The translations under genes and the position numbers were made by a program. A DNA stretch of 64,000 nt from Eledone cirrhosa (lineage: Eukaryota): positions 56,730,001-56,794,000 of the forward strand of contig OZ024742.1 of assembly GCA_964016885.1 (NCBI GenBank), in the 5' to 3' direction. The notes below the pieces were generated by a model. That model saw only the letters and a program-made list of their open reading frames with translations, was not told where the DNA came from and did no database searches. The stretch's first letter is position 1, and each line of letters opens with the position of its first letter. Below, piece after piece: positions 5,698 through 60,800 of the stretch.

Positions 5698-5823
5698 GTA
5701 GGAGGTGAGTTTTATTGTAGTACAATAAAGTAATGCAGATATCGGATAAGAAGCACTCTAAAGTTTGTAGGACTGGAGTATACATAATATAAGATCAAAA
5801 GATGGTTAAAGGAGTTCCATGTA

Positions 5824-5890
5824 TTTTATTATGCGCATTTCAAAAACAAACATCATCATGCAATAATATTTGTGTTTTCATCAGATAAAA
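5824..5890 (-). ncRNA. Type I hammerhead ribozyme (family B)
   Basis: Reverse complement of the motif at 6111-6177. Confidence 0.85.
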
Positions 5891-6110
5891 GAGGAGAACA
5901 TGATATGAAGGCTAAAAAACACTTGTGGATAGTGCAGTTTTAAATCAACATATCAACTTGCCGCATCCGCGGATAGAATACTAGAGGTGGACTCTAATAC
6001 CAGTCGGCATAATCCTTGTGTGGCTTCTTCTTCTGTTCCCCCACGCAATATGTTGATTTAAAACTGCACTATCCACAAGTGATTTTTAGCCTTCATATCA
6101 TGTTCTCCTC

Positions 6111-6177
6111 TTTTATCTGATGAAAACACAAATATTATTGCATGATGATGTTTGTTTTTGAAATGCGCATAATAAAA
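6111..6177 (+). ncRNA. Type I hammerhead ribozyme (family B)
   Basis: TTTTAT-CTGATGA-(long helix II AAACACAAATATTAT..ATGATGATGTTTGTTTTT)-GAAA-TGCGCA-TA-ATAAAA. Confidence 0.88.
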
Positions 6178-6214
6178 TACATGGAACTCCTTTAACCATC
6201 TTTTGATCTTATAT

Positions 6215-6245
<31 letters not shown>

Positions 6246-6790: not shown

Positions 6791-7138
6791 TGTAGTGATT
6801 TTGCACCTTAACCTGCCGACTTTCCGGCGCAATGACACGTTCCCTTTTGTAACCTCTTTTTATGTGTAACTTCAACCATACAAGTTAACCAACATTATTT
6901 GTGCTACAACAAAAATAAACATACATTTCATCTCTAATTTCTGCTGTTGAAATCATTATTATGTTACTCGTGTCTCAATAACATTTAATTTACCATGCTG
7001 CTTATTTGGCGACCGGCTCTCGGTCAGTTCACTCACGAGTAAGTTTGTTAACCTTATTATATCTGTATCGAATTTAATTAGTGGTTGGCCTGCAGTGGCG
7101 TTTACCAAAGTAAATAACCCTGTGACCAATTCCCTAAA
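6791..7138 (+). repeat. 5' LTR (lacks ~185 bp present in the 3' LTR)
   Basis: TGTAGTGA is joined to TTTTGCACC. The remainder matches 12121-12461 with about 3 substitutions seen. Confidence 0.92.
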
Positions 7139-7139
7139 G

Positions 7140-7152
7140 TGGTGACCCCGAC
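7140..7152 (+). promoter_or_regulatory. Primer-binding site, complementary to the tRNA-Trp 3' end
   Basis: TGGTGACCCCGAC lies 1 nt after the LTR end. Confidence 0.8.
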
Positions 7153-7476
7153 TAAGAACAACTTGCCTTGCAAGCATAGTTTTCCCGCGTACAGCTTGTC
7201 TTCTTCAATCCCAGCCATCTGATTGGCTGCATCGTGCCACATGACGGCTCCTTCATCACAAACACATTTTTCAATCAGCCATCTTGGGATGTTCTTACCA
7301 AATAATTTTCATGGAAAATAATTTTTTTATTATGCAAATTTTATTTTGGCCGGCGAGAATTTTCAAAAAGAATTTCAGTTGAATTCGCGTGAATAAGATT
7401 TTGGATTCCAGTGTGGCCTTTTGGTTGAGTGGCTGCATCAAAGACATAGTTCGTCCTGGGAGATTCTTCGGCAATC

Positions 7477-8304
7477 ATGAATCCACATCATTTGCCGTCC
7501 TTCGCAGGCGACATCAAATTATGGTTTTTGCAGCTTGAATGCTATTTTGATTTAACCAAAACCAAAGAACAGCATAAACTGAAGGTACTAGTTAGTGGCT
7601 TGCCTGTGTCGTTGGCAAATTCCGTGAAGGACGTGATAACCAATTTAGCCGCAGACGTTACTTATGGCTCGTTGAAAGGGGAAATTATTCGGAGGAATAC
7701 TAAGTCAGCGGAAAGTCGTTTCCGGGAATTGTTAGATGATGCGCAAATGGGTGACAGGACGCCAAGCTCCTATTTGCGACATCTGCGGGAGTTGAGCGAC
7801 TCCCAGGGCATGGACACCCCATTCCTCAAACAACTATTTTTCTCTCGTTTACCGCCAAGTGCGCAAATGGTCTTGGTCAATAATTTGGAGAGGGAATCGT
7901 TAGATCAACTTGCCGCATCCGCGGATAGAATACTAGAGGTGGACTCTAATAGCAGTCGGCATAATCCTTGTGTGGCTTCTTCTTCTGTTCCCCCACGCAA
8001 TTCTTCTGTGGCCGACAGCAAACTGTTGGAGATGATCGAAGCGCTTACCAAAAAAGTGGAGGATTTGACCGTACAACATAGAGAGCCTTCTCAACGTTTA
8101 AGGTACCGTTCGCCTCCGTCTGCTATTCCTCGAAACCGCTACGAGTACCGTTCGCCACCGTCTTCTGTTCCTCGCCAACACTACACTTCAGGCAGCAGTA
8201 ATTCTTCGATTTGTTGGTATCATGTTAACTTTGACGGTCGGGCGCAGCGCTGCCGGGCGCCTTGTAACTATAGGAGTTCGGAAAACGCCAATCAGAGCCA
8301 CTAG
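7477..8304 (+). CDS. gag: Gag (Ty3/Gypsy)
   Basis: [20 protein letters not shown] and C-terminal CWYH..F...A..C..PC motifs. Confidence 0.9.
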
Positions 8305-11300
8305 GGGCGGCTAGTGAACTCTGGGAAACTCGACCAAACCGTCATCTTTTTGTGTACGATCTGCAGTCAAAAAATTTTTTTCTTGTCGACACTGGCGCGT
8401 CACTAAGTATTTGGCCAGTCAGTTATCTTAAAAAAACCCCATCTGAATCAAATATGAATTTACGAGCAATCAACCACACGGCCATTCGAACGTACGGGCA
8501 AATTTCGCTTCCTCTTCGGTTTAAAAATTTGTGTCGTGAATTGAAGTGGAAGTTTACTATCGCCGACTTGCCATACGCCATTTTGGGAGCGGATTTCCTC
8601 CACCATTTTTCCTTGTCGATTGACATCCTCAGACAACGACTTTTTGATGCTAATACAGGCCTATCGTTCGAGGGTACAAAGCCGGAGAGCGCCACAGTAA
8701 GCCCTGCTTTTTTCTTGGCTGAAGTGGGCAACCAGTATCACAGTTTGTTAAAATCATTCCCACAGCTGATGCAAGGAAGATTACGAATTGCTAGTCCGGA
8801 TCATGTGATTGAACATTTTATATCTACTACAGGTCCACCCGTTTTCTCACGTCCTCGAAGATTATCTGCAGAGAAGTTGAAAGCTGCACGTCTTGAATTC
8901 GACCACATGCTGGAATTAGGAATAATTCGGCGTTCCATAAGTCCTTGGGCATCGCCTCTGCATATGGTACTTAAATCTTCTGGTGATTGGAGACCGACGG
9001 GTGACTACCGACGCTTAAACGCGATTACTGTGCCTGACCGTTATCCAATCCCGCATTTGCAGGATTTTGCATTGTCATTGCAGGGTTGCAGAATCTTTTC
9101 TAAGCTTGATTTGATCCGCACTTATAATCAAATTCCGGTTAAAAAGGAGGATATTCCAAAGACTGCTATTGCCACTCCTTTCGGATCATTCGAGTTCCTC
9201 ACTATGCCTTTCGGACTTAGACATGCTGCAAGTACTTTTCAACGATTCATGGATGATGTCACTCGTGGTCTCGATTTTGTTTACACGTATATCAATGATG
9301 TACTGATTGCTAGTTCTTCTCCTGAACAACATTCCAAACATCTGGATATCTTATTTCGGCGTTTACAGAAATATAATGTTCGTGTTAATGCCGCTAAGTG
9401 TGTTTTCGGCTCGACATCGCTAACATTTTTGGGCCATCTTATTGATGCCGATGGTATTCGGCCCCTTCCGGAAAAAGTTAAGGCAATTTTGGATTTGCCT
9501 CCGCCAAGTTCGCTTCGACAATTACGGCAATTCTTGGGCCTTGTGAATTTTTATAGGCGATTCGTGCCTAATTGTTCCAGCTTACTGTCCTCGTTGACAG
9601 ACATTTTTTAAAAACTGTCGACGGAAGAATATGAACATTTCATTAAATGCAACGCACCTGGCGGATTTTGAGAAAGTGAAAAAAGCGTTAGCGACTGCAT
9701 CTTTGCTCGCCCACCCCATGCCCAACGCCGAGCTGTCGCTCTGTGTTGATGCTTCGGATAGCGCCGTGGGCGCAGTCTTACAGCAGAAGTGTGAGGGTTT
9801 ACAGCAACCACTCGAGTTCTTTTCGAGAAAGTTAAAGCCTGCCGAAACTCGCTATAGCACCTTTGGAAGGGAGCTATTAGCAATTTATTTATCAGTGAAA
9901 CATTTTGCTCATGTTCTTGAAGGTAGAATGTTCACAATTTTTACTGATCATAAACCTTTGACGTTTGCTCTTCGAACTAAAGCAGACAAATACTCGCCCA
10001 GAGAAACGAGACATCTGGACTTCATCTCACAGTTCACGAACGACATTCAACATATTCCGGGTTCTTTGAATACAGCGGCGATGCGCTGTCTCGCCTGCCG
10101 ATCGCATCGATTTCGTCTTCCGAGGAGATAGATTTACATCGAATGGCAGCTGCTCAACCCACTCTCGAATCGTTGGATGTTACATCGCCAGAGTTTGTAC
10201 ATTGCAAACTGAAATACATTCCGATCTCAACTGCTGACGGACAAATACTGTGTGACGTTTCGTTGGACTCACCACGACCTCTAGTCCCAGTGGAACATCG
10301 ACAAACTGTGTTTCTCGCTTTACATGGCATTTCTCACCCTGGAGTATCAGCCTCAGTAAAACTAATAACAGCCAGATTTTTCTGGCCTGATATGAGACGT
10401 GACATTGCTGCTTGGTGCCGTTCCTGTGTCGCTTGCCAAAAGTCAAAAGTTTATAAGCTCGGAACTTTCACCTGTCCTGATGCCAGATTTCGTCACATTC
10501 ATGTGGACATCGTCGGCCCGTGGCCGGTTAGTCGTGGTTATTCGTATATTTTGACGATCGTTGACCGTTTTTCGCGTTGGCATGAAACCATCCCTATGAC
10601 AGATATCACTGCTGAAACGACAGCGCGTACTCTCGTATCTGCATGGATCGCTCGTTTTGGAGTACCAACCACAATAACAACAGACCGCGGTCGTCAATTT
10701 GAATCGAACCTCTTCCGTGAATTAACACAAATTATTGGCACTACTCGCATAAGAACCACGGCATATCATCCAGCATCAAACGGAATGGTGGAAAGATTTC
10801 ACAGACAGCTTAAAGCCTCTTTAAGGGCTTCAATGGACTCTTCACGTTGGAGTGAGTACCTACCTATTGTGTTGTTAGGTATTCGGTCGACAATAAAGGT
10901 GGACCTTGGGTTCTCCCCGGCCGAATTGATTTATGGTACTCCTCTTGCGTTACCGGGGCAAATGCTTGCTGCTGTTGATCTTGCTTCGCAGGATCCCGCT
11001 TCCTACGTGTCCCGGCTTCATTCTTACTTCCAGGATTTACCACCGATGGACACAAGGAAGCGAACTGTAAAAACTGCCGTCCCAAGGGATATTGCCTTGT
11101 GGACACATGTGTTCGTTAGAGACGACGCCGTGAGACCCCCTCTTCAACGGCCGTACTCTGGACCCTATCGTGTGCTTGCTCGCACAGACAAACATTTCAC
11201 ACTGAACATTTGGGGTTCCAGGGAAACGGTTTCCGTTGATCGTCTCAAACGAGCAAACCTGGACAATGACACAATGACACTTGAAACTCAAATGCCCCCT

Positions 11301-11414
11301 TCTTTTTCTTTGCCACATACGCCTATTTCTTCCCCCCCCCCCATCAACATAAAGAACTACGACCCGTTCTGGGCGAAGGGTGCATTTGTCCCCGTAAGCT
11401 ATGCAGTAATATAA
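8280..11414 (+). pseudogene. pol: Pol (protease-RT-RNase H-integrase) in the -1 frame from gag, disrupted
   Basis: [30 protein letters not shown] (catalytic DD changed to ND), [41 protein letters not shown] and GPY motifs. Frame breaks near 9610 and 10080-10140. Confidence 0.93.
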
Positions 11415-11927
11415 ACTGAATTGTATTATTTTCTTCTTCCAATTGTTTTTGCTGTATATTTCATTGTGTTGCTTTTTGATTCTTGACTGCCTACGGCAGT
11501 GTCAATATATGTTATTTTTCGTAACATTACGACTGTTGTCAACTCTGACACAGTCCATTTTTTTAGTGCATTTTTTTTTGCTACATATGGCATTTTCATT
11601 GCCTAGCAAAAAATTTTTTTTTGTTTATCGCATTTGGGACCCTTACTGCGAATGGTATTTTTAATGCATTTTGCATTTATTGCTGCATGTGTATAATTAT
11701 TGCATTTGTTGTATATTTTTTGTGTAATGCCTGCATGCATTAACCTATTTCACCTCCATATTGTTCGTTTTGAGACCGGTTTCAATAACTTGTAAAGAGT
11801 ACCTTGTAAGGCTTTGGCTTCATTGTTATATACTACAGGAATTTTTCTTGCACCAATTTACAACTTCTAGTTCCTCCATGCTATCGTTTGTTTTACGATT
11901 TTTATTAAAAATCTGGTCGGAGGTGAT

Positions 11928-12457
11928 TGTAGTGACCTACATTCCGCGGGCTCACGTACATTCTCTGTGCGTGATTTGGCTCAGCTCAGCCAATCAGCGC
12001 CAGTAGAGGAGGATGTATCCCTACGCGTCCTGAGGGAGAAATTACCCGCGAAGATTTGATGAATCTCTCTCTCTCGCACCAGGAACTTCGAACCAGCAAC
12101 ACGTACATGTGACGGTGAGATTTTGCACCTTAACCTGCCGACTTTCCGGCGCAATGACACATTCCCTTTTGTAACCTCATTTTTATGTGTAACTTCAACC
12201 ATACAAGTTAACCAACATTATTTGTGCTACAACAAAAATAAACATACATTTCATCTCTAATTTCTGCTGTTGAAATCATTATTATGTTACTCGTGTCTCA
12301 ATAACATTTAATTTACCATGCAGCTTATTTGGCGACCGGCTCTCGGTCAGTTCACTCACGAGTAAGTTTGTTAACCTTATTATATCTGTATCGAATTTAA
12401 TTAGTGGTTGGCCTGCAGTGGCGTTTACCAAAGTAAATAACCCTGTGACCAATTCCC

Positions 12458-12461
<4 letters not shown>
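11928..12461 (+). repeat. 3' LTR
   Basis: Starts TGTAGTGA after a degenerate purine tract and ends CCCTAAA. Confidence 0.92.
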
Positions 12462-12499
<38 letters not shown>

Positions 12500-12600
12500 T
12501 ATACACACATACACATACATATACATACATACACACATACACACACATACACAAGCATATACATATATACACATATACACATACATAAACATATATATAT

Positions 12601-13646
12601 ATATCCAAAATTAAGATAAATTAAATGAATTTAATCCCAATCGAAATTGTGGGTGTGCCATAACGGCTTGCACCATATCGCCTGGAAATAAGCTCAAAGA
12701 TATATCCCAGCATTTTAAAATAACTAGAAATTGATTAACATATAAATATACATGAATAATCACAGGAGATAATTTTTACAAGCGTGTAACCACGCATGGT
12801 TAGTTTGGGTAATAATTAAATGTATACCTTTAAGTATGATTAACCGTCCTTGTATATATCCCATTAAAGAAATATATTTCACCAATTAATCAGATGGTAA
12901 GTCACGGAAAGTGGATATTATTGGATTGTCAACAGGGAAGAATAATGTCCAGCTATCCATGCTCATACAGCGAGTTCAAATCCTCATCTGGCCGCTACCA
13001 CGTGTTGTGTCTACACATCACAGCAGCTTCGTTTCAGTGGCGTGAATAGGTATTCGACAACTAGAAATAGCAGTCAAAATTCCCTTCAACAGAAATAGCT
13101 CTACAATTAAGGAGCCGTATATATATATATCTATATCCAAAATTAAGATAAATTAAATGAATTTAATCCAAATCGAAATTGTGGGTGTCATGCCATAACG
13201 GCTTGCACCATATCGCCTGGAAATAAGCTCAAAGATATATCCGAGCATTTTATAATAACTAGAAATTGATTAACATATAAATATACATGAATAATCACAG
13301 GAGATAATTTTTACAAGCGTGTAACCACGTATGGCTAGTTTGGGTAATAATTAAATTTATACCTGTAAGTATGATAAACAGATGAGGATTTGAACTCGCT
13401 GTGTGAGCATGGATAGCTGGACATTATTCTTCCTTGTTGACAATCCAATAATATCCACTTTCCGTGACTTACCATCTGATTAATTGGTGAAATATATTTC
13501 TTTAATGGGATATATACAAGGAAGGTTAATCATACTTAAAGGTATAAATTTAATTATTACCCAAACTAACCATGCGTGGTTACACGCTTGTAAAAATTAT
13601 CTCCTGTGATTATTCATGTATATTTATATGTTAATCAATTTCTAGT

Positions 13647-13650
<4 letters not shown>
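12601..13650. repeat. Tandem-plus-inverted repeat element (family D, ~532-bp unit)
   Basis: 12601-12842 is repeated at 13133-13378. 13380-13650 is an inverted copy of ~12718-12990. (TA)n flanks. Confidence 0.85.
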
Positions 13651-13723
<73 letters not shown>

Positions 13724-13899: not shown

Positions 13900-15180
13900 C
13901 TAATGAATGTTATTCTATACGTAATTATAGTGAGTTGCTATTTAGAATATTTAATTAGGTTTATAGTATTTAATTAGGTTTATAGTATTTAATTAGGTTT
14001 ATAGTATTTAAATGTTTTTCGTATACGGTGATTACAGACTATGATCAATTCTTGTCTTTTATTTAATAAATCGTCCTTAGATTTAGTAATTTCCAAGATC
14101 TCTCCTGAACATAATCCGCATTCCCTCCTGTCTCCAAGATATGGAGTTTTTCGTAGAATGGTGTTCCACGATAAATTAAAATCTATTTTTTTTCTTTTTA
14201 TAATTATTTACCGCTTCAGCTAAAGATGTGGTGCTTGCTAGTTTAGTATTGTTGAAACTACTAGAGTGCGCGTAAAATCTTTTCTTAAATGTGTTTGATG
14301 TAGATCCTATATATGTTTTGTTGGAGTCTGTAGTAGACACAGTGCATTTATATACTACATTATTAATCAAACAGTTTCCATTTAAGGGGCAAATGCTTCT
14401 ATTTCTGCAATTACAGCCATACGTAAGATGGTTTTGGGTGGTGCCTATACTATTCTCATTTATCCTTGAGCTATTCCTATTGTAATTAATGATAGCAGGA
14501 GAATGAAGGTTGCTTTGTGGGTGGTTTGGTGCTAGAGTTGTATTGTAATTTTGTGTTCTGTTGTTTTTGTGTTGGTGAATTGGGTGATTGTGTTTTCTAG
14601 GTTGAAGGATTGTATTATTTGTCTTTTTATAAGGTGCAGTCCTATTTAAATTATGTTGCGGTGGTGTAGTCACATTATTTTTAAGTTTATAAATGTTGTA
14701 GTTGCTTATTTTTTGTTTGAGATTGTTTGATGTAGAGTATGAGAATTTAACTGTATATTTATTAAATATTTGGGGGTATATGTGGTTTGGTGGAAAATGT
14801 TTATGTAGTGTTTCAAAGAATTTGTTGGGTATTTGTCCAATAGTTTGCAGGTTGAAGGATGCGTTGTACCATGTTATGTTTCTTTTGCGGTTTTTAGTTA
14901 AGCTTTTATTATCCCTTATAGTATTGTGTTGTATTCTAGAAGAGTTCATATGGTTAGTATCCTTATTTGTGGAATTTGGTAAATCATCGTGGTTGTATTT
15001 GCTGTTATTTTGGGGTAGATTATGAGATTTTGACTGCTTGGTATTCATATATGGGTTGATAACATTGGTCATAGATCGTGTAGTAATATTTGTTGTGATT
15101 TTTCGGTTGTTTGGTGTAATAGGAATAACCACTTTAGGTATTTGTTTCAATGGTATTTTTTGGTGTTTGTAGTTTTTGTT
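13900..15180 (-). mobile_element. Penelope-like element 3' part with GIY-YIG endonuclease (Neptune-like)
   Basis: RKRNITWYN..F, HFPPNH...IFNK..VKFSYS and CNCR....CPLNGNC....VVY...YIGST..FKKRF..H motifs. After a frameshift it continues with LSWNTIL...CGLC..E...LLNKRQE. Confidence 0.92.
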
Positions 15181-15233
15181 ATATATATATATATATATAT
15201 GTATGAGTATATATATATATATATATGTATGGG

Positions 15234-15264
<31 letters not shown>

Positions 15265-15269
15265 ATGGG

Positions 15270-15316
<47 letters not shown>

Positions 15317-24990: not shown

Positions 24991-25995
24991 AGTTCATACA
25001 CATTAGTAGAGAATTAGTGTTGACATATAGGAAATGATGAAATATAATAAAGTATAATAAAGTAAAATAAAGTAAAAGTAACGTTGAAGATAGATGACCA
25101 TTAAATAAACAAGGGATATATCACAAGTGGAAAGTAAATGGTACAAAAGTAGAAACTAAATACAGAAAAAACTAACAAAAAGGTGAATAAAAAGGAGAAT
25201 AAAATGGTGGAATGTATGAAAAGTACCAAGATTAGACTATGCCAACGTCTAATATGTATCACAGAATTGATAGCCGTTCAAAGATATAGAATATGCTAAG
25301 AAACGTATAAGATTTGTATTTGCAATATACAAATCTTATAAGTTTCTTAGCACCCACCTTTTTGTCCTTATTTGTGTTACTTTTTCTGTCTTGTGTTTCT
25401 ACTTTTGTACCATTTACTTTACACTTGTGATGTATTCCTTGTTTATTTAATGGTCATCTATCTTTTTACTTCATTCTACTTATTCTATTTTATCATTCAT
25501 ATATGTCAATACTAATTCTCAACTAATGTGTACTGTACTACATACTAGCGAGACTGGTTATTGCCACTACTACTACTACGGTCACTGGGGCCGAGTGCCA
25601 CTCCTATTTAACTTAGGTATCGTCAATGCAGCCTGGTCTGTTATTGTTGCTGCTGTAAACAAATCCATCTGATACAGCAACTGATTTCTAAGGTTAGCAC
25701 CAACTACTACAGTATCTCTGAATGACCTGATTCCTGAATAAATGGACGGAAAATCTCAGACCATGGCGCCACTAAGGAATTCACAAATTCTTGATGATAT
25801 GGTAGTGAAACTACCTCTGACCAATAGCTGAAGGCGCTCTATATCCCTTGTGTTGATGCTGAGAGGGATTTTAATTTAAGTCATATGTCACGGGTGCTTT
25901 GACAAAGCAACACCAAATTTCAGCGTGATATATCAATGAATCGAAACAATAGGAGTTATCATTTTTTTTATATGGAGTTTTCTATTCAACTTTTA

Positions 25996-28692: not shown

Positions 28693-28836
28693 TATATATA
28701 TATAAATGTAATCTGAGTTTTTCGAATATTAATAATAACATTCGATTCATTTGCAATTTTGCAAACAAGCCTCAATTTTATAGCCATGTCAGTAGAATGA
28801 ACACTTCATTCTTGCTCTTGTGTTGGCATGAGAACA

Positions 28837-28886
28837 GAACGGCAGACACTAATGTTTCTGTGTATTGCCCTTCATCAGTACAGCTC
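28837..28886 (-). ncRNA. Hammerhead, family J (left arm of fold-back 28774-29210)
   Basis: GAGCTGTA-CTGATGA-AGGGCAATACACA-GAAA-CATTAGTG-TC-TGCCGTTC. Helix II is damaged. Confidence 0.65.
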
Positions 28887-29097
28887 AATGTAATTTAAAA
28901 TATAGTTTTTTAATTGAATTTGGCAAAGCCGGCCATTTATCGCTTATATGCAAATCTCGCTGATCAGTGGATCTGCTAATATGCAGATCTGACTGATCAG
29001 CCAGTCTGCTAATATGCAAATCAGGCCGATCATTAACTGTGTATTTTTGAAAATAGAATATATTTTCACTAGCTCTGACAGTTGGCAGGGGAACAGT

Positions 29098-29147
29098 GAG
29101 CTGTACTGATGAAGGGTGATTCCCAGAAACATTAGTGTCTGCTATTC
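29098..29147 (+). ncRNA. Type I hammerhead, family J
   Basis: GAGCTGTA-CTGATGA-A GGG TGATT CCC A-GAAA-CATTAGTG-TC-TGCTATTC, with a GUC cleavage triplet. Confidence 0.75.
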
Positions 29148-29941
29148 TGTTCGAATGCCAACACAAGAGCAAGAATGAAGTATTCATTCTACTGACATGG
29201 CTATAAAATTGTATAGAATTCACTATAGACTATATTTTAACCTGTAATCCATGTTTCATTTCTGTTGCACCTCATTCCCCCCCCCTCTCTCTCTCTTTCT
29301 CTCTCTCTCTGATATTTGAATCTACTATGATTTGGGCTTAGCTTATTCCTATTTGATATATATATATTTGATTTTAAATTTGATTTTGAAAGTAGGTTTA
29401 TAATTATCAATTGTCATCATACTTTTGCAGTTTTCTGAGTGGCCTAGTTGGAGGAATCATAGACGATGGTGATCCTCGTCTGAAGTTCGGTCCTGGTCAG
29501 GAGTATGGTTACTGGTAAACCATTTCATTATTTTCTACGGGTTGTAAAATAAAAACTGTAAAAGGTTACATGTACCTCTTGACCAGGATTGAACCCAAGG
29601 CCAGCATCTCCACCGTCTCTAGTACCTACAGAGACAACAACGAAAATCTTATGAAAATTCATGCTTATAAACTTACTTTCAAAATGTTGGTGTCGTTCAT
29701 GTCTTTCTTAATGTTATTGCTCCTACTTAAGGTCGACTTTTAAATCATTTGGGTGTTCCATAAACTACATCATCGTTCTGTTTCACATCTATCTAGATTA
29801 TATTTTAACCTGTAAACCAACTTTCATTTCTGTTGCACCTCATTCTCCCCCTCTCTCTCTGATATTTGAATCTACTATGATTTGGGGTTAGCTTATTCCT
29901 ATATATATGTTTTTGCATGTCAGTTAGATTACAGCTTACAA

Positions 29942-30350: not shown

Positions 30351-30433
<83 letters not shown>

Positions 30434-30441
<8 letters not shown>

Positions 30442-31327
30442 GACGTAAAATAAGAAAATTATAAAAATTAACTTACTTACTAAAATTTCACTCCAACTAA
30501 TTACTTTCTGAAAGGGAATAAACACGGTTTCCGAATGGAACATGGAGAATACCTTTCGTCATCAGGAAGTCAATTGTCAGCTAAGTTCCCAGGCGATGCG
30601 TGGACACAGGGAACTTATACAAAAATAATTCAGTGGATGGAAAAAAGCAAGCGAGGACTAGATTCCAGGGCATTGAAAAAATCACTGCCTACTTGGTCGG
30701 TGGCAAATTCAAAAGAATCAATCACGTGACATCGACAAAACCTATATATTTGCTAGCATAGGTATGCATCTGTATATATATATGTTGGTAGATATACTAA
30801 TTCTTTATAATTATCTTCAAATTATTTTGTTGAGCAAAAATTTGCCAAAACTACTTCTATAGTTCATAGTAATAGTCCGGCTACTGTCTTATTAACACCC
30901 CCACTCCTCACTGATTGACCTCGATGTCACGTGATTGATTCTTTTGAATTTGCCACCGACCAAGTAGGCAGCGATTTTTTCAATGTCCTGGAATTTAGTC
31001 CTCGCTTGCTTTTTTCCATCCACTGAATTATTTTTGTATAAGTTCCCTGTGTCCACGCATCGCCTGGGAACTTAGCTGAGATTTGACTTCCTGATGAAGA
31101 AAGGTATTCTCTATGTCTTATTCGGAAACCATGTTTATTCCCTTTCAGAAACTAATTAGTTGGAGTGAAATTTTAGTAAGTTAATTTTTATAATTCTCTT
31201 ATTTTACGTCTTTCATATAATTGTTCTGCATCCCCTTGCATTGAACCACAAAGTTTCTAAGACAAAACCTATATATTTGCTAGCATAGGCATGCATCTGT
31301 ATATATATGTTGGTAGATATACTAATT

Positions 31328-32258: not shown

Positions 32259-32616
32259 TTAATTTAATATTATTCTTAACCCCCCTTTTTCTCTTCATCA
32301 ACTTTTAATTTCAAATTCTTTTAAATTATCTATTATCTTCCAACGGCTTTTTAACTTCTCTCTGTGAGACAATATATATTTTTCTCAGTTGTAAAGGCTA
32401 TCTCTCTCTCTCTATCACCCATCTCTCCTCCTCTCTCATCCTTCCTTATTATACTCCTCCCCCACCATTCTCTACTCTCATCTCCTCCTCTTTCTCACCC
32501 TTCCCCCACCCCTCACTTTTTCCCAATATCATACATCAATCTTAAATTATTTTTCATATGTTGATTTAAAACTTTACTATTCACAAGTGTTTTTTAACCT
32601 TCATATCAAATATCCC

Positions 32617-32687
32617 TATTTTATCTGATGAAAACGCAGATATCATCTCATGATGATATTTGTTTTTGAAATGCGCATAATAAAATA
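32617..32687 (+). ncRNA. Type I hammerhead (family B) in terminal repeat 32260-32813
   Basis: TATTTTAT-CTGATGA-AAACGCAGATATCAT CTC ATGATGATATTTGTTTTT-GAAA-TGCGCA-TA-ATAAAATA. Confidence 0.88.
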
Positions 32688-32810
32688 CTTTGAACTCTTT
32701 TAACCATCTTTTGATCTTATATATTATTTATACTCCAGTCCTACAAACTGTAGAGTGCTACTTATCCGATATTTGCATTGCTTTATTGCACTACAATAAA
32801 ACTCACCTCC

Positions 32811-32945
<135 letters not shown>

Positions 32946-34173: not shown

Positions 34174-34223
34174 AAAAATATGGAACGCTTCACGAATTTG
34201 CGTGTCATCCTTGCGCAGGCGCC

Positions 34224-34256
<33 letters not shown>

Positions 34257-34280
34257 AATATGTACTGCCGTAGCTAGAAT
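34174..34280 (-). ncRNA. RNU6: U6 snRNA, full-length copy, probably a pseudogene
   Basis: AAAATTGGAACGATACAGAGAAGATTAGCATGGCGCCTGCGCAAGGATGACACGCAAATTCGTGAAGCGTTCCATATTTTT, with substitutions in the 5' stem and the ISL. Confidence 0.95.
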
Positions 34281-35063: not shown

Positions 35064-35210
35064 TATATATATATACAAATAATAGTAAAAAGTATTACAC
35101 TCTGCTTAGAACTACACCTACTGGAAACAACGCATCGAGTGCTCGCTACAGTAACTACAGTAACTGGACATTACAATCCATATATATATATATATATATA
35201 TAATATAGAT

Positions 35211-35263
35211 GAGATTCTACAGGACTAGAACTGTTTCATTCTTTAGAAATCATCAGGAATCTC
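35211..35263 (-). ncRNA. Type I hammerhead, family A (perfect 56-bp fold-back 35201-35318)
   Basis: GAGATTC-CTGATGA-T TTC TAAA GAA T-GAAA-CAG TTCTAGTC CTG-TA-GAATCTC. Confidence 0.88.
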
Positions 35264-35389
35264 TGATGATTTCTAAAGAATGAAACAGTTCTAGTCCTGT
35301 AGAATCTCATCTATATTAAAACTTTTATACTCTGCTATGTATTGAGTACCTTACTTACTGTGGTTACCTCCGATTCAACCCGGAATAAC

Positions 35390-51698: not shown

Positions 51699-51980
51699 AG
51701 TTGCAGTTATCTTGCTTTATGTTCATACGAGTTATCACCAAGTCACAACCAGTGACCTCAAGAGACAACAAGGTCTGCCATGTTCAAGAAAGAACATACA
51801 AACACATGCATCTTTAGGTGTTTAGACTTGTGATGTACTTATATTGACAGAATCTTCCTTAGTATATGGGCAGTTCCCATTAGTACTATCTTTTGTATTT
51901 CTCCTATACGCGGGTTTCCTTGGATTTGCGATAAGTAATCATTCCTAGAGCGCCTACAACCACTGGTATTGTTTTAGTTT
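51698..51980 (-). mobile_element. Second R4-clade family, 3' fragment in (TAA)n
   Basis: KTIPVVVGALGMI...GNPRIGEIQKIVLMGTAHILRKILSI* with an unrelated 3' UTR. Confidence 0.85.
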
Positions 51981-52004
51981 ATTGTTATTATTATTATTAT
52001 TATT

Positions 52005-55000
52005 CTTTGAGTCTCAGTCATTGATGTTAGTTAACTGGAAAGTTTGTTGAAATGAATATCAAGCCAGTACCTGCAGCCTCAGATATTCAGGACGTATCGG
52101 AGAGCTCTTGCTGTTCCCAGCAAGCATGTCTTTTGAAGGGTTCCAAAAAGCGGGGCGGGGCCAATTTTCTTTAACCATCCCTGGAAACTTTTTGAGATAG
52201 TACCTAGTGCGCCTATGACAATCGGGATCACTTTGACTTCATGGCAGTTCCAAATCCTTTTTACCTCCCACTTTAAGTACTGGTATCGGTTAATTTTCTC
52301 CCTCTCCTTCTCTTGCACTCTCGTGTCGAATGGGCAGGCCACATCCACAATCAGGCACGATCTTTTTTCCTTGTCCAAAACCACCAGGTCAGGTCTATTG
52401 TGTTCCAGTTTCTTGTCCGTCTGTATCCTAAAATCCCATAGCACCTTCACCTGATCATTTTCTATCACCGACTCTGGCTTATGCTCATACCACTTCTGAG
52501 AATGTGGTAAATTGTTTACTTTGCATAGGTGCCAGTGGATCACCCTGCCCATCACATCGTGTCTCCAACCTTTATAGTGAGTCTGGGCTAGGTGTTTACA
52601 CTCGGATACAATGTGAGCCACAGTCTCCTCTCTCTCTCCACAGATCCTGCACAGTGGGCTAGCCTCCTCCTTGTAAATATGGTGTTTCTGCCACTTCGTT
52701 TTGAGAGCCTGCTCTTGCGCAGCTATTAGCATTCCTTCTGTAGACTTTTTAAGGTCCCCTCTTCTCAACCAGTTCCATGTCTGTGGATCTCTGAATTCAG
52801 TTTTCTCAAATAAGGTACTATGAAGCGATTTTTCATGAAGGTTGCTCTTTCTACTCGTTGTTATTTCCTCCTTGGACATCCCCTGGTCTATTGTCCTCTC
52901 TTTCAGTACAATTCTGAGCATTCGCTCCTTACTATCGGTCACGTATTTGTGTAGGTTGTTTTTCTCCATCTGAACACAGTCCTCTATGCTTATAAGACCT
53001 CTTCCACCTTCAGATCTCCTTAAGTAGAGTCTATCGACATCACTCCTCTTGTGGAACATGTTGTAGATAGTCAATAGCTTCCTAGTATTCCTATCCATTT
53101 CTTTTTGTTCAGCAACATTCCATCTCAGACTTCCGGCACTCTACCTAATAATAGACACAACTCGGGAATTTACTGCACTTATGGCATTCCTACTGTTCAG
53201 ATGTGACTTTAATACGCTCCTTACTTTCCGAATGTATTCAGATCTTATCAATTCCTTCATTTTTTTGTTCTTGGTCATCAGCCTCCAGAATACCCAAATA
53301 CTTGTATCCTTCTCCAGTGTCAATTTCCTTTATCATCTCGCCTGTTGGTACCTGGATTCCGTTGCTTCTGCTCAATTTACTCCTCTTCATCACAAGGACT
53401 CCACACTTACTAATACCAAATTGCATACATATATCATTGCTGAAAATACGGACAGTGTCAACAAGCACATCCAACTCCTTCTCACTCTTCCCGAAGAGCT
53501 TAAGATCGTCCATGAATAGGAGGGGATTGATGGTAAGCTCTCCCTTTCCCAACTTGTATCCTGCTCTCACTTTTCGCAGTATAATGGTCTGGGGCATCAG
53601 GGAAAGGACAAACAACAGAGGGGACAGACTATCTCCCTGGAAGATACCCCTCTTGATCTTCACGCCTCCCAAGGATTCTCCAGTTGATGTTAACTCTGTT
53701 TTCCAGGACTTCATACTTTTGCTCAACAACTGTCTGATGTTATCTGCCACCTTGAAGATCTCTAGGCTTTTGGTGATCCAAGAATGAGGCACCATGTCAA
53801 ATGCCTTTTGGTAGTCTATCCATCCTATGGCAAGACCAGTGTGTCTCCTCTTGCAATTCCTCATTACCATATTATCAATAAGTAACTGGTCCTTTGTACC
53901 ACGGAACTTCTTTCGGCATCCTTTCTGTTCGTCCGGTAACAAGTTGTTTGTGTGGAGGTGATGGTAGATTTCCTCAGACACAATGCTTGTCAACAGTGTC
54001 CACATTACGGACAGACATGTAATAGGTCTATAGTTGGTAACATCATTACCCTTGATTCGGTCTTTCATTACCAGAACTGTGGTACCTTTTGTCAACCACT
54101 CTGGTACTTCACCTGACATCAAGCAGTCATTGAACATGGTTGTCAGTTTCGGGTGGAGGGATGTTTCATTTTTAATCCAATAACCCTGAATACTATCTGA
54201 GCCTGGTGATTTATAGTTGGTTAGTTTTTTGGCCTGCCCCTTGAGAGTTTCTTAACTGTGATACTCAAATCAGTTTGTTGGGGTGCCTGTTCACTAATCT
54301 TCTTTTGTACTGTTTCAATCCACACTGCCTGGTCATTATGTTTAACATCCTGCTCCCATATTCCTCTCCAGATTGTCTTAGTTTGTTCCGCCTCAGGGAT
54401 CAAGTCGTTGCCTCTTTCTTTCCCTTCAAGCTGTCCAAACAACATCTTCTGGTTGTTGTCAAACATGCGGTTCTGTCTATACTGACTGACTCTGCTCTGA
54501 TACCGCCTAATCTTTTCAATTTTTGCTACAATGCGTTGCTTCAGTTCCCCTATGATAATATTCAGCTTTTCCTCCCTAGTTTTGTACTTTATTTCCAATC
54601 TATTTTTAGTGTCTGTGTTTTGTAATGTCCCATTCAGTAGGGACTCAAGCTTTCCAATGTCATTTCTCATTTCCCTGAGTTGACCATTCAGTCGTTTCTT
54701 CCACCAAGGTTCTGATCTTTCTTGTTTGTTGTTTCCTCTCGCTTTTATGCCAAGTAATTTCCTCACCGCATTTGCTGTTGCTTTGAGGATATTGTTGCAC
54801 TGGTGAAGGCTCCTCGCCTCAAGGTATGGGATGACTTTGTTTACCTTAGCTGTTGTTTCTTTTAATTTTTTCCTGTCTACAAATCTTAGGTTCATAGGTT
54901 TCCCACTATCATTGTTCATTTCATCTACCACTAAGTTTAGGATTTCAACCAAATCTTGTCCTAGCCCGTCAGCATTCATCTCCTCAATGGCCGTATCTTT

Positions 55001-56291
55001 GTTCCAGGCATTATTTGTTTCAGCATTCAGATCATTGTCTGCTTCGGATGGTTCCTCCGTTCTCTCAATCTCTTCACCTTCATTTCCCACTGGCTCATTT
55101 GACTGGCATACTCCACTCTTCATTTCCAACCTAATCTCTCTGCTCAGTTCCTCCAGTTCCAGCTCGCTTATCCACCCATTAGTTCTTATTACCCGAGCCT
55201 GCCCGGCCAATTTTTGTTCATCTAATTTAAATAGACCAATCTCGTTCCTGATGTTATGCATCCGTTTCCTATAGCCCTTTTCCTTGGAGTTACTCTTCAG
55301 GTAACATTGCATAACAGTTCTATTCAATTTTTTCGTCCAGTTGGTTCTGATCACTTTCCTTCTTCTTCCTCCGACACCAGCAGTATTTCGTTGACAGCCA
55401 GGTCCCTGCTGCTGAGCCAGGGAGCACCTGCTGGGTGAGAGTCTGTCACATGACATTCCAGTCTCCACTTCACCGTTATTCGAACTGTTTAGGTTCGACA
55501 TTGAAACACTCTTATCGAGGATTGGTGAATATATGGTTACATAACCACCGGTGATTTTAGCGTGGCACTATCACGCTGTAGACGAACATAAATAAACAAA
55601 CAAATAGGTAAAAACCCCAATAAATAAGCATAAGTTTCATTGTAATGTAATGTTTGAATATCTGACTTAGTTTTTTTTGCTTGTCTGTCTGTTTGTTTTT
55701 CTTTTCTTTTTTCTTTTCTTTACGTTTTTCGTTGCTGCTGTGCTGTTTTGATTTTGATTTTTGATTTTTTGATTTTTTTGACCGGGTCATAAAATCAGTC
55801 TATTTATATCTTTTGATGCCTTCCTCATTTAGTGGGAGTACTATGATGCCTGTCTTAGCAGGAGGTATTTGGAGAAAATAGCGGCGGTAGCGATAATGAG
55901 ACAGTGGTGGTGGTGATGTGATAGTAGTACTGTAGTGATGGTGTTGAAGTTGCAGTAGAAATAGAAGTTTAGATAACTTGACTAGAGTTTTTGGCGTGGT
56001 AGTGGTGATGGTGGCGGTGGTGATGTTGGTGGTAAAATTATTTGCCTGTCTGTCCACTTAGCCATTTTCTCTTTTTCGACTATAACATTTCTAATCCGAA
56101 ATTAAATATTAAATATTGGGGCCCTATGACGTAACGTGATGCGTTGTTGCCTGCTGAGAGTCAAAACTGTAATCTTATATTTCATTTGTAATAAGAATTA
56201 TTCTAACACAGTTGTTTTAAATAAGTAAAAATCAAAAACTTACGGGAGCGATTCCATAAGGATATATATCCACCATGTGAGTTTTCTTCAC

Positions 56292-56292
<1 letters not shown>
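52005..56292 (-). mobile_element. Full-length R4/Dong element, frameshifted
   Basis: ORF pieces at 55501-54221, 54137-53238 and 53098-52079 are colinear with the 1130-aa ORF. (TAA)n lies on both sides. Confidence 0.95.
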
Positions 56293-56347
<55 letters not shown>

Positions 56348-56360
56348 TATTGTTATTGTT

Positions 56361-57826
56361 CTTTGAGTCTCAGTCATTGATGTTAGTTAACTGGAAACTT
56401 TGTTGAAATGAATATCAAGCCACTACCTGCAGCCTCAGATATTCAGGACGTATCGGAGAGCTCTTGCTGTTCCCAGTAAGCATGTCTTTTGAAGTGTTCC
56501 AAAAAGCGTGAAGAGGCCAATTTTCTTTAACCATCCCTGGAAACTTTTTGAGATAGTACCTAGTGCGCCTATGACAATCGGGACCACTTTGACTTCATGG
56601 CAGTTCCAAATCCTTTTTACCTCCCACTTTAAGTACTGGCATCGGTTAATTTTCTCCCTCTCCTTCTCTTGCACTCTCGTGTCGAATGGGCAGGCCACAT
56701 CCACAATCAGGCACGATCTTTTTTCCTTGTCCAAAACCACCAGGTCATGTCTATTGTGTTCCAGTTTCTTGTCCGTCTGTATCCTAAAATCCCATAGCAC
56801 CTTCACCTGATCATTTTCTATCACCGACTCTGGCTTATGCTCATACCACTTCTGAGAATGTGGTAAATTGTTTACTTTGCATAGGTGCCAGTGGATCACC
56901 CTGCCCATCACATCATGTCTCCAACCTTTATAGTGAGTCTGGGCTAGGTGTTTACACTCGGATACAATGTGAGCCACAGTCTCCTCTCTCTCTCCACAGA
57001 TCCTGCACAGTAGGCTAGCCTCTTCCTTGTAAATATGGTGTTTCAACCACTTCGTTTTGAGAGCCTGCTCCTGCGCAGCCATTAACATTCCTTCTGTAGC
57101 CTTTTTTAAGGTCTCCTCTTTATTATTATTATTATTATTATTATTGTTGTTATTCCTTGAATCTCAGTCATTGATGTTGGTTACCTGGAAAGTCCGTTGG
57201 ATTGAATATCAAGCCACTACCTGCAGCCTCAGATATTCAGGACGTATCGGAGGGTTCTTGCTGTTCCAAGCAAGCATGCCTTTTGAAGCGTTCCAAAAAG
57301 CGTGAAGGGGCCGATTTTCTTTAACCATCCCTGGAAACTTTTGGAGATAGTCCCCAGTGCGCCTATGACAATCGGGATCACTTTGACTTCATGGCAGTTC
57401 CAAATCCTTTTCACCTCCCACTTTAGGTCCTGGTATCGGTTAATTTTCTCCCTCTCCTTCTCTTGCACTCTCGTTTATTATTATTATTATTATTGTTATT
57501 GTTATTCCTTGAATCTCAGTCATTGATGTTGGTTACCTGGAAAGTCCGTTGGATTGAATATCAAGCCACTACCTGCAGCCTCAGATATTCAGGACGTATC
57601 GGAGGGTTCTTGCTGTTCCAAGCAAGCATGCCTTTTGAAGCGTTCCAAAAAGCGTGAAGGGGCCGATTTTCTTTAACCATCCCTGGAAACTTTTGGAGAT
57701 AGTCCCCAGTGCGCCTATGACAATCGGGATCACTTTGACTTCATGGCAGTTCCAAATCCTTTTCACCTCCCACTTTAGGTCCTGGTATCGGTTAATTTTC
57801 TCCCTCTCCTTCTCTTGCACTCTCGT
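56361..57826 (-). mobile_element. Three 5'-truncated R4/Dong copies (56361-57119, 57155-57474, 57507-57826)
   Basis: Each has the RLE C-terminus, the 3' UTR and a TAA tail. Confidence 0.95.
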
Positions 57827-57858
57827 TTATTATTATTATTATTATTGTTATTGTTATT

Positions 57859-60800
57859 CCTTGAATCTCAGTCATTGATGTTGGTTAACTGGAAAGTCCG
57901 TTGGATTGAATATCAAGCCACTACCTGCAGCCTCAGATATTCAGGACGTATCGGAGGGTTCTTGCCGTTCCAAGCAAGCATGCCTTTTGAAGCGTTCCAA
58001 AAAGCGTGAAGGGGCCGATTTTCTTTAACCATCCCTGGAAACCTTTGGAGATAGTCCCCAGTGCGCCTATGACAATCGGGATCACTTTGACTTCATGGCA
58101 GTTCCAAATCCTTTTCACCTCCCACTTTAGGTCCTGGTATCGGTTAGTTTTCTCCCTCTCCTTCTCTTGCACTCTCGTGTCGAACGGGCAGGCCACATCC
58201 ACAATCAGGCACGATCTTTTTTCTTTGTCCACAACCACCAGGTCAGGTCTATTGTGTTCCAGTTTTTTGTCCGTCTGTATCCTAAAATCCCACAGCACCT
58301 TCACCTGACTGTTCTCCATCACCGCCTCTGGCCTATGCTCATACCATTTCTCAGAATGTGGTAGATTGATTACTTTGCACAGGTGCCAGTGGATCACCCT
58401 GCCCATCACATCGTGTCTCCAGCCCTTATAGTGGGTCTGGGCTAGGTGTTTACACTCGGACACAATGTGAGCCACAGTCTCCTCTCTCTCTCCACAGATC
58501 CTGCACAGTGGGCTAGCCTCCTCCTTGTAGATATGGTGCTTCAACCACTTCGTTTTGAGGGCCTGCTCCTGCGCAGCCATTAGCATTCCTTCTGTAGCCT
58601 TTTTGAGGTCTCCTCTTCTCAACCAGTTCCATGTCTGTGGATCTCTAAATTCAGTTTTCTCAAAGAAGGTACTATGAAGGGATTTTCCCTTAAGGCTGCT
58701 CTTCCTCCTTGATGTTATTTCCTCCTTGGGTATCCCCTGGCCTACTGTCCCCTCCTTCAGTACAGCTTTGAGCATTGGCTCCTTACTATAGGTCACGTAT
58801 TTGTATAGGTTGTTTTTCTCCATCTGAACACAGTCCTCTATGCTGATAAGACCTCTTCCACCCTCAGATCTCCTTAGGTAGAGTCTATCGACATCACTCC
58901 TCTTGTGGAACATGTTGTAGATAGTCAATAGCTTCCTAGTCTTCCTATCCATTTCTTTTTGTTCAGCAACATTCCATCTCAGAATTCCCGCACTGTACCT
59001 AATAATAGACACAGCTCGGGAATTTACTGCGCTTATGGCATTTCTGCTGTTCAGATGTGACTTCAATACGCTCCTTACTCTCCGAATGTATTCAGTTCTT
59101 AACAATTCCTTCATTTTTTTGTTCTTTATGCCATCAGCCTCCAGAACGCCCAAATACTTGTATCCTTCCTCAGAGTCAATTTCCTTTATCATCTCACCTG
59201 TTGGTATCTGGATCCCGTTACTTCTGCTCAACCTACCCCTCCTCATCACAATGACTCCACATTTACCAATACCAAACTGCATACATATATCACTGCTGAA
59301 AATACGGACAGTGTCAACAAGCACATCCAACTCCTTCTCACTTTTCCCGAAGAGCTTAAGATCGTCCATGAAGAGGAGGTGATTGATGGTAAGCTCTCCC
59401 CTTCCCAACTTGTATCCTGCTCTCACTTTTCGCAGCATAATGGTCAAGGGCATCAGGGCAAGGACAAACAACAGAGGGGACAGGCTATCTCCCTGGAAGA
59501 TACCTCTCTTGATCTTCACGCTTCCCAAGGATACTCCAGTTGATGTCAACTCTGTCTCCCAGGACCCCATACTCCTGCCCAGCAACTGTCTGATGTTATC
59601 TGCCACCCTGCAGATCTCCAGGCTTTTGGTGATCCAGGAATGAGGCACCATGTCAAATGCCTTTCTGTAGTCTATCCATCCCATGGCAAGATCAGTGTGT
59701 CTCCTCCTGCAATTCCCCATTACCATCTTATCAATAAGCAACTGGTCCTTTGTACCACGTGACTTCTTTCGGCATCCTTTCTGTTCGTCCGGTAACAAGT
59801 TGTTTGTGTGGAGGTGATGGTAGATTTCCTCAGACACAATGCTCGTCAACAGTTTCCACATTACGGGCAGACATGTGATAGGTCTATAGTTGGTAACATC
59901 ATTACCCTTGATTCGGTCTTTCATTATCAGAACTGTGGTACCTTTTGTCAACCACTCTGGCACCTCACCCGACACCAAGCAGTCATTGAACATGGCCGTC
60001 AGCTTCGGGTGGAGGGATGTTAAATGTTTAATCCAATACCCCTGCACACCATCTGGGCCTGGTGATTTCCAGTTGGTTAGTTTTTTGGCTTGCCCCTTAA
60101 GAGTTTCAACTGTGATACTCAAATCAGTCTGTTGCTGTGCCTGCTCACCGATCTCCCTCTGTACTGTCTCAATCCACCCTGCCTGGGCATTGTGTCTAAC
60201 ATCCTGCTCCCATATTCCTCTCCAGAATGTTTTAGCTTGTTCCGCCCCAGGGATCAAGTCGGTGCCTCTTTCTTTCCCCTCAAGCTGTCCAAACAGCATC
60301 TTCTGGTTGTTGTCGAACATGCGGTTCTGTTTATACTGACTGACTCTGTTCTCGTATCGCCTGATTTTGGCACTCTTTGCTACAATGCGTTGCTTCAATT
60401 CCTCTATGATAATATTTAGCTTTTTACTCCTAGTTTTGTATTTTATTTCCAGTCTATTTTTAGTGCCTATATTTTTTAGTGTCCCATTCAGTAGTGACTC
60501 AAGCTTTCCTATGTCATTTCTCATTTCCCCGATTTGCCCACTCAGTCGCTTCTTCCACCACGGCTCTGCTCTTTCTTGTCTGTTGTTTCCTCTCGCTTTT
60601 ATACCAAGTAGTTTCCTCACCGTATTTGCTGTTGCTTTGAGGATATTGTTGCACTGGTGAAGACTCCTCGCCTCAAGGTATGGGATGACTTTGTTTACCT
60701 TAGCTGTTGTTTCTTTTAACTTTTTCCTGTCTACAAATCTTAGGTTCATAGGTCTCCCACTATCATTGTTCAACTCATCTACCACTAAATTTAGGATGTC

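What the first reader, a model, noticed from the sequence alone, without database searches (positions are those of the whole stretch)
5952..6049. 98 bp of the neighbouring gag gene captured as the loop of a hammerhead fold-back
Seen: the spacer between the inverted family B arms matches 7904-8001 at 97 of 98 nt, in the same orientation and about 2 kb away, with 1-2 nt microhomology at the joints. Inference: during insertion the PLE polymerase or repair synthesis jumped onto nearby DNA or Gypsy RNA and back. A transcript would form a ~165-bp hairpin displaying gag sequence, with a ribozyme on either strand.
Basis: partly seen in the sequence, partly recalled or inferred. Interest (0 to 1): 0.75.

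Follow-up and report, generated by a model that had tools for sequence, protein, structure and literature searches.

The report
Penelope fold-backs patched with nearby DNA
A small mirror-image jumping-gene insertion holds a 98-base copy of DNA from about 2 kb away that happens to be part of another transposon's gag gene; sister insertions hold similar copies of whatever lies 0.3-2 kb away, so it is likely a repair patch made while the insertion was sealed, not a gag-silencing device.

Summary
Observation confirmed: arms 5779-5953/6048-6222, spacer = 7904-8001 at 97/98. The adjacent Gypsy is the best of 39 other scored genomic matches and shares a rare allele with the spacer. The arms are the 3' end of a hammerhead-bearing Penelope-like element with Hydra-clade motifs; about 2,060 matches of such head-to-head joints exist, mostly with no or tiny loops. 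Of 13 complex foreign loops tested, 10 have a donor 0.3-1.9 kb away, none of the other nine donors is this Gypsy family, and 10 of 12 donor segments are in direct orientation. Likely mechanism: two cDNAs primed from both (TA)n nicks end at one RNA start; one end briefly copies flanking DNA before they join. Gag is incidental, Gypsy RNA unlikely as template, and the hairpin is predicted to block both ribozymes. No read spans the structure (inconclusive). Local patches are known from L1; this scan noted them at Penelope fold-backs in other genomes, and twin priming in this one. Different here: kilobase reach, direct-orientation bias, a family-wide count.

The parts
5700..5953 (-). Long arm: 254-nt 3' end of a Hydra-type Penelope-like element, with 79-nt tail (5700-5778), 3' end in (TA)n
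   Evidence: same unit lies about 1 kb after the stop of a 908-aa PLE frame in L119
5838..5884 (-). Type I hammerhead core of the long arm, palindromic helix III
   Evidence: architecture as in PMC4209133 (passages)
5952..6049 (+). Captured patch (94 nt loop plus AT microhomology at each end), direct copy of 7904-8001
6048..6222 (+). Short, tail-less arm, running into (TA)n
6117..6163 (+). Type I hammerhead core of the short arm
6791..12461 (+). Young Ty3/Gypsy LTR retrotransposon in (TA)n; LTRs about 6791-7138 and 11929-12461; pol in three separate frames
7904..8001 (+). Donor of the patch, inside gag, left intact

Best explanation
The 98 bases are a direct copy of the neighbouring Gypsy's gag DNA, likely written in as a filler while a Penelope-like insertion was being sealed. 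Inferred steps: the element's endonuclease nicks both strands of a (TA)n tract; each end primes a cDNA on the same short RNA (one from the tail end, one from the tail-less start); both run to a fixed 5' end; the two free 3' ends normally anneal through their terminal ATAT; here one end first primed on single-stranded flank DNA 1.7 kb from the target, copied about 96 nt, let go, and annealed to the other cDNA through AT. The donor is whatever DNA lies within about 2 kb, so gag is incidental and the patch has no function.
For: Shown: local copy 97/98, the other 38 scored copies at most 96/98. T at spacer position 47 is in the local copy, while 26 of 28 other fetched copies have C, including the four closest gag relatives (96-97%); the two other T copies are 87% identical and differ at two more sites. 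10 of 13 complex loops have a donor 320-1,857 nt away though at least 10 kb each side was searched; for 8 of the 10 no match at the 22-23 other loci used as control (the control asked for 60% of the loop, which is strict for the two-piece loop). 10 of 12 donor segments direct (p 0.039), the class ascribed to copying from the other resected end in PMC7165422 (passages). 17 of 30 top family copies carry an adjacent inverted arm, 16 of these ending at the tail boundary, matching two-strand nicking and two RT start sites in PMC11167929 (parts 1-2 of 4). Joints with loops of 0 or 1 base cannot form by one strand folding back (inference from geometry). Arms share 140 minor alleles against 29 differences at segregating sites in 46 true pairs. 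Arm divergence tracks patch divergence (rho 0.65, p 0.04, n 10).
Against: No read spans this structure. 3 of 13 complex loops have no donor within 20-40 kb, and one has no other match in the genome. Two of the ten donors are repeats (control 9 of 23 and 2 of 23 loci, at lower identity). Without the 18-nt donor the direction count is 9 of 11. Two segments are inverted. Reach and length exceed what is described for Pol theta patches (template within 50 bp, tracts rarely over 10 bp), so the polymerase is unknown. Loops were picked by eye from partial listings. Which end invaded, and that the flank was resected, are not shown.
Confidence: 0.7

Rival explanations
1. The insertion began as a perfect 175-bp palindrome; it later broke at its centre and was repaired with a local templated patch.
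For: Perfect palindromes are common in the family and are fragile (established knowledge, recalled). A local patch and short microhomology would look alike.
Against: Both arms are complete to the last base; several patches sit next to an extra C/G that is in neither the donor nor the element (C1:240313, C9:38937, C23:2923), which fits unjoined cDNA ends; patch age tracks arm age.
Confidence: 0.12
2. The PLE reverse transcriptase jumped from the end of its RNA onto nascent RNA of the neighbouring Gypsy (or any local transcript) and back.
For: If the right-hand cDNA jumped, the template would be gag sense RNA. Co-insertion of a nearby pre-mRNA is reported once for L1 (PMC10191854, passages).
Against: The other nine donors are not this Gypsy and lie on either side; an RNA template gives no reason for 10 of 12 direct segments or for a limit near 2 kb. 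Transcription of the donors was not testable.
Confidence: 0.08
3. A loose single-stranded fragment cut from the flank during resection was ligated between the two cDNA ends, and the gap was refilled.
For: Two patches start with no microhomology at the left joint (C1:240313, C9:38937); cleaved flaps are proposed for L1 (PMC11702581, passages).
Against: Most joints show 1-4 nt of microhomology, and one loop is a two-piece mosaic of opposite orientations, as template switching gives.
Confidence: 0.07
4. Assembly or library chimera.
For: No spanning read was found; palindromes are hard to sequence (recalled).
Against: The spacer has a base found in none of 29 other copies, the arms differ from each other, both joints fall on the family's exact end, and nine independent loci show the same anatomy with age-related divergence.
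Confidence: 0.03

Closest known systems
Templated insertions at human L1 integrations (bioRxiv 10.1101/2024.08.27.596794, passages; PMC11702581, passages)
   Same: Non-element genomic DNA under 250 bp copied into a new insertion; twin priming from both nicks; joining of two cDNA ends by microhomology.
   Different: There templates are described as within 15 bp of the site (as printed; supplementary figure not seen); here 0.15-1.7 kb from the element's outer edge, placed at the centre of an inverted duplication, germline, in a PLE.
Inverted-pLTR insertions of EN+ Penelope-like elements, Hydra clade (PMC8557442, section 11 and passages; PMC3846280, passages)
   Same: Head-to-head inverted ends, tail on one end, hammerhead, (TA)n targets, Hydra protein motifs; host DNA captured between pLTRs is reported in rotifer elements.
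   Different: Tail is 79 nt, not 30-40; both arms stop at one fixed base about 1 kb after the ORF; the passages read do not trace captured DNA to the local flank, and favour self-priming, which loops of 0-1 base do not fit.
Pol theta templated insertions, TINS (PMC7165422, passages)
   Same: Direct and inverted classes, short microhomology, repeated rounds; the many short self-copied loops of this family look like TINS.
   Different: TINS use template within 50 bp with tracts rarely over 10 bp; these patches are 31-183 nt from hundreds of bases away.

Membership tests
Hydra-clade Penelope-like element | Single ORF with RT and C-terminal GIY-YIG endonuclease | tested here: met
   908-aa stop-to-stop frame L119:5803-8529 upstream of the same 254-nt end; Atlas look-alikes 0.95-0.98 with GIY-YIG/RVT_1/HTH_animal members. 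Pfam and PDB gave no significant hit.
Hydra-clade Penelope-like element | DKT, CxCX5C linker, CxxC and CxH motifs | tested here: met
   DKT 234, CNCRIKNKC 767, CNLC 867, CLH 895 against PMC8557442 section 11.
Hydra-clade Penelope-like element | RWK motif; CCHH motif absent | tested here: inconclusive
   RWT at 148, a variant; one cysteine only within the GIY-YIG core, judged by eye; the paper's supplementary alignments were not seen.
Hydra-clade Penelope-like element | Hammerhead in the end repeat, (TA)n targets, inverted copy with tail on one end | tested here: met
   tail 79 nt rather than 30-40.
Hydra-clade Penelope-like element | Placement in the Hydra clade on an RT tree | not tested
   No reference sequences were fetched.
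Type I minimal hammerhead | Conserved core, helix I and II, short palindromic helix III | tested here: met
   helix II probability above 0.9 in single arms, helix I weak (0-0.08).
Type I minimal hammerhead | Self-cleavage (as dimer) | not testable with these tools
   Predicted blocked in read-through hairpin RNA.
L1-type templated insertion | Copied genomic template under 250 bp, donor intact | tested here: met
   98 nt here; 31-183 nt in the family.
L1-type templated insertion | Template within about 15 bp of the insertion site | tested here: not met
   About 1.7 kb here; 0.15-1.7 kb in the family.
Pol theta TINS | Template within 50 bp, short synthesis tract | tested here: not met
Pol theta TINS | Dependence on POLQ | not testable with these tools
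   Needs genetics.
Ty3/Gypsy LTR retrotransposon (donor) | Direct LTRs, gag, then RT-RNase H-integrase | tested here: met
   LTRs 99%; Pfam DUF7041, RVT_1, RT_RNaseH, Integrase_H2C2, rve in that order.

The most novel reading that the evidence does not exclude
Hydra-type Penelope elements integrate through a distinct intermediate: two complete cDNAs of one capped mini-RNA, started at an internal promoter in the 3' UTR, hanging from ends resected for up to 2 kb; the element's own polymerase jumps onto that single-stranded flank. The patches are then a fossil ruler of germline resection length and settle how PLE inverted ends form.
Probability: 0.25. Interest if true: 0.62.

Novelty: new variant of a known kind. 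Interest (0 to 1): 0.37.

Why it matters
How Penelope-like elements finish integration and form inverted ends is stated to be open (PMC8557442, PMC11167929). This family offers about two thousand joints with one fixed end, and the rare patched ones give testable numbers: reach 0.15-1.7 kb, mostly direct orientation, 0-4 nt microhomology. It also shows a steady route by which small pieces of any neighbouring DNA are duplicated into hairpin loops. The gag content itself matters little.

Tried and rejected
Reads: no RNA holder listed; contigs and RAD reads laid twice gave no piece bridging a joint and, at 98% likeness, no cover of the loop; inconclusive. Rfam found no hammerhead. Pfam and PDB did not recognise the PLE protein. 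Patterns for loops starting with other bases added few cases. No donor for C2:331393 (30 kb each side), C5:114645 (20 kb), C3:31428 (40 kb; genome search returned only itself). C19:22137 has a 34-nt match 5.9 kb away but it is a common repeat (control 3 of 23): not counted. C12:38430 was mis-parsed and dropped; nine short, microsatellite or self-repeat loops were left out of the 13. One of 47 arm pairs joined two separate insertions and was dropped. My first clade guess, Neptune, was dropped after the motif check. The 252 single-base joints (49 of 50 listed C/G) do not prove a cap: a start one base upstream gives the same letters. Donor side relative to the tail showed no clear bias (7 opposite, 4 same). 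Gilbert 2005 (PMC1190285) was not held. Searches listed no title or abstract start on local flank capture at PLE fold-backs; only four PLE papers were opened (passages or parts), so absence from print is not established.

Full report
Observation. The arms (5779-5953, 6048-6222; 175 nt, 99%) and the direct match 5952-6049 to 7904-8001 (97 of 98) are present. AT at each end is shared by arm and donor, so the loop is 94 nt. The left arm has 79 extra nt (5700-5778). The donor lies in the gag frame of a young Ty3/Gypsy element (LTRs: 2 substitutions and 1 single-base gap in 349 aligned nt, plus a 184-nt gap in the 5' LTR; Pfam domains).

Is the neighbour the donor? A genome search scored 40 of 80 candidates: the spacer itself, the neighbour at 97/98, and 38 others at 96/98 or less. 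Among 28 other fetched copies, 26 have C where spacer and neighbour have T (position 47); the two with T are distant (87% over gag) and differ at two more sites, while the four closest relatives have C. So the T likely arose at this locus and was copied. Position 49 C is in none of the 29 copies, a later or copying change. None of them is flanked by family B arms.

What family B is. [quoted passage not shown] DKT, CxCX5C, CxxC and CxH match the Hydra clade description; Atlas neighbours agree; Pfam does not hit; no tree was built. The Hydra lead came from earlier scan notes and was checked here by motifs. Of 30 top copies, 17 have an adjacent inverted arm, 16 of which end at the tail boundary. 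Exact-arm patterns give 1,659 joints with 0-11 bases between and 405 with 12-160 (a few loci count in both). In the listed rows most loops are empty, a single base, short self-copies, or more of the element.

How the fold-back forms (inferred). An anole PLE protein nicks and extends both target strands and starts at two RNA sites that define the tail (PMC11167929). Here one arm has the tail and the other starts at its boundary. Joints with 0 or 1 base between perfect arms cannot be made by one strand priming on itself, so two cDNA ends are joined. Arms nearly always share subfamily alleles (140 shared minor alleles, 29 segregating differences in 46 pairs), so both came from one RNA or one source. 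Both stop at one base, which suggests a defined RNA start. An extra C on the cDNA, absent from donor and element, is seen at three clean joints plus the ambiguous C19 locus, and 31-mers ending in C outnumber T 7,000 to 1,800 in contig depth. This fits a cap-derived G as noted for L1 (PMC11702581) but is partly ambiguous, because the element's upstream base gives the same letter on the other arm.

Survey of foreign loops. I chose 24 loci by eye from the listings (one search listed 50 of 405 places, 100 of 122 rows); one was mis-parsed. Thirteen have complex, non-element stretches of 30 nt or more. Ten have a donor 320-1,857 nt from the loop (about 0.15-1.7 kb from the element's edge) at 92-100% identity, with at least 10 kb searched each side; three have none within 20-40 kb. 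Controls against the other loci were blank for 8 of 10; two donors are repeats, with the local copy the best. One further loop has an exact 18-nt donor 859 nt away. Of 12 segments 10 are direct (p 0.039); one loop is a mosaic of an inverted and a direct piece. None of the nine other loci has this Gypsy within 2.5 kb. Patched joints found are thus about 0.5% of the pattern matches, a lower bound. The window's case is the farthest donor.

Mechanism of the patch (inferred). Direct copies are what priming on the opposite, resected end gives (PMC7165422). For this locus: the left cDNA primes on the bottom strand of the right flank through AT or ATC, or through ATCAAC after a short self-slip of a kind seen in the family; copies about 96 nt; and anneals to the right cDNA through AT. 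In that route the template is the antisense strand, so not Gypsy mRNA; the mirror route (right cDNA on gag sense) cannot be excluded for this one case. Length and reach exceed Pol theta patches and the L1 templated insertions as described, so the polymerase (PLE RT or a host enzyme) is open.

Function. A read-through RNA folds into a 175-bp stem (-299 kcal/mol, z -40). On either strand the antisense arm comes first and the hammerhead stems have probability 0; such ribozymes are also thought to need dimers and cleave poorly (PMC4209133). Gag sequence is in the loop, so dicing of the stem would give PLE, not gag, small RNAs (inference). No RNA data were available.

Reality. No read or contig bridged a joint; the data were short contigs that drop rare variants and may be from another animal. 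Private mutations and nine parallel cases make an artefact unlikely.

Verdict. Real; a variant of known templated insertions; gag incidental. The scan recorded the same kind of patch at Penelope fold-backs in other genomes (mostly inverted single cases) and twin priming in this genome; those notes are unchecked and not counted as support. Papers were seen as passages or named parts only; no supplements were read, and those of PMC8557442 and the L1 preprint may bear on clade motifs and template distance.

Noticed in passing
window 6791-7138 vs 11929-12461: The Gypsy's 5' LTR lacks 184 nt present in its 3' LTR and in another copy's full LTR (L016); the gap lies between the PLE insertion and the donor, at a short shared motif. 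A link to the same repair event is possible but unshown.
   Followed up: partly
window 8217-8265: Gag ends with a C-X2-H-X9-C-X3-C knuckle, a motif I recall for the CsRn1 group of Gypsy elements (name recalled, not tested); pol is split over three frames.
   Followed up: no
window 12591-13653: Another fold-back family: arms 12716-12990/13379-13653 (98%) with an internal direct copy 13123-13379 of 12591-12844.
   Followed up: partly
window 14176-15315 (-): 379-aa frame whose C-terminal part is 38% identical over 236 aa to the PLE protein's endonuclease end: a second Penelope-like family.
   Followed up: partly
window 32553-32811 (-): Older family B copy (89%), single arm, continuing into the element's upstream sequence.
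   Followed up: partly
window 24997-25532, 28773-29211, 30433-31219, 35201-35318: Further inverted structures, several with hammerhead-like cores (26001, 29106/28878, 31091/30565, 35263/35256, 17009, 1435); no local donor found for the loops of the first two.
   Followed up: partly
window 34174-34280 (-): U6 snRNA gene or copy, 103 bits.
   Followed up: no
window 51979-61566 (-): Tandem, partly duplicated non-LTR retrotransposon with a 1141-aa RT frame at 57933-61358 and 352-nt repeats at 56327-58178.
   Followed up: no
L017/L018 (G000:C3:296242069-296243683): Two gag copies 1.5 kb apart in opposite orientation, an inverted duplication within a Gypsy copy.
   Followed up: no
G000:C1:426598035 and C1:426817895; C1:18486714 and C1:18493179; C1:341218784 and C1:341222766: Pairs of fold-backs with the same complex joint 4-220 kb apart: local segmental duplications or assembly duplicates.
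   Followed up: no
L040:1454-1500 (G000:C3:31428998): 47-nt loop with no second match found in the genome: orphan filler of unknown source.
   Followed up: yes
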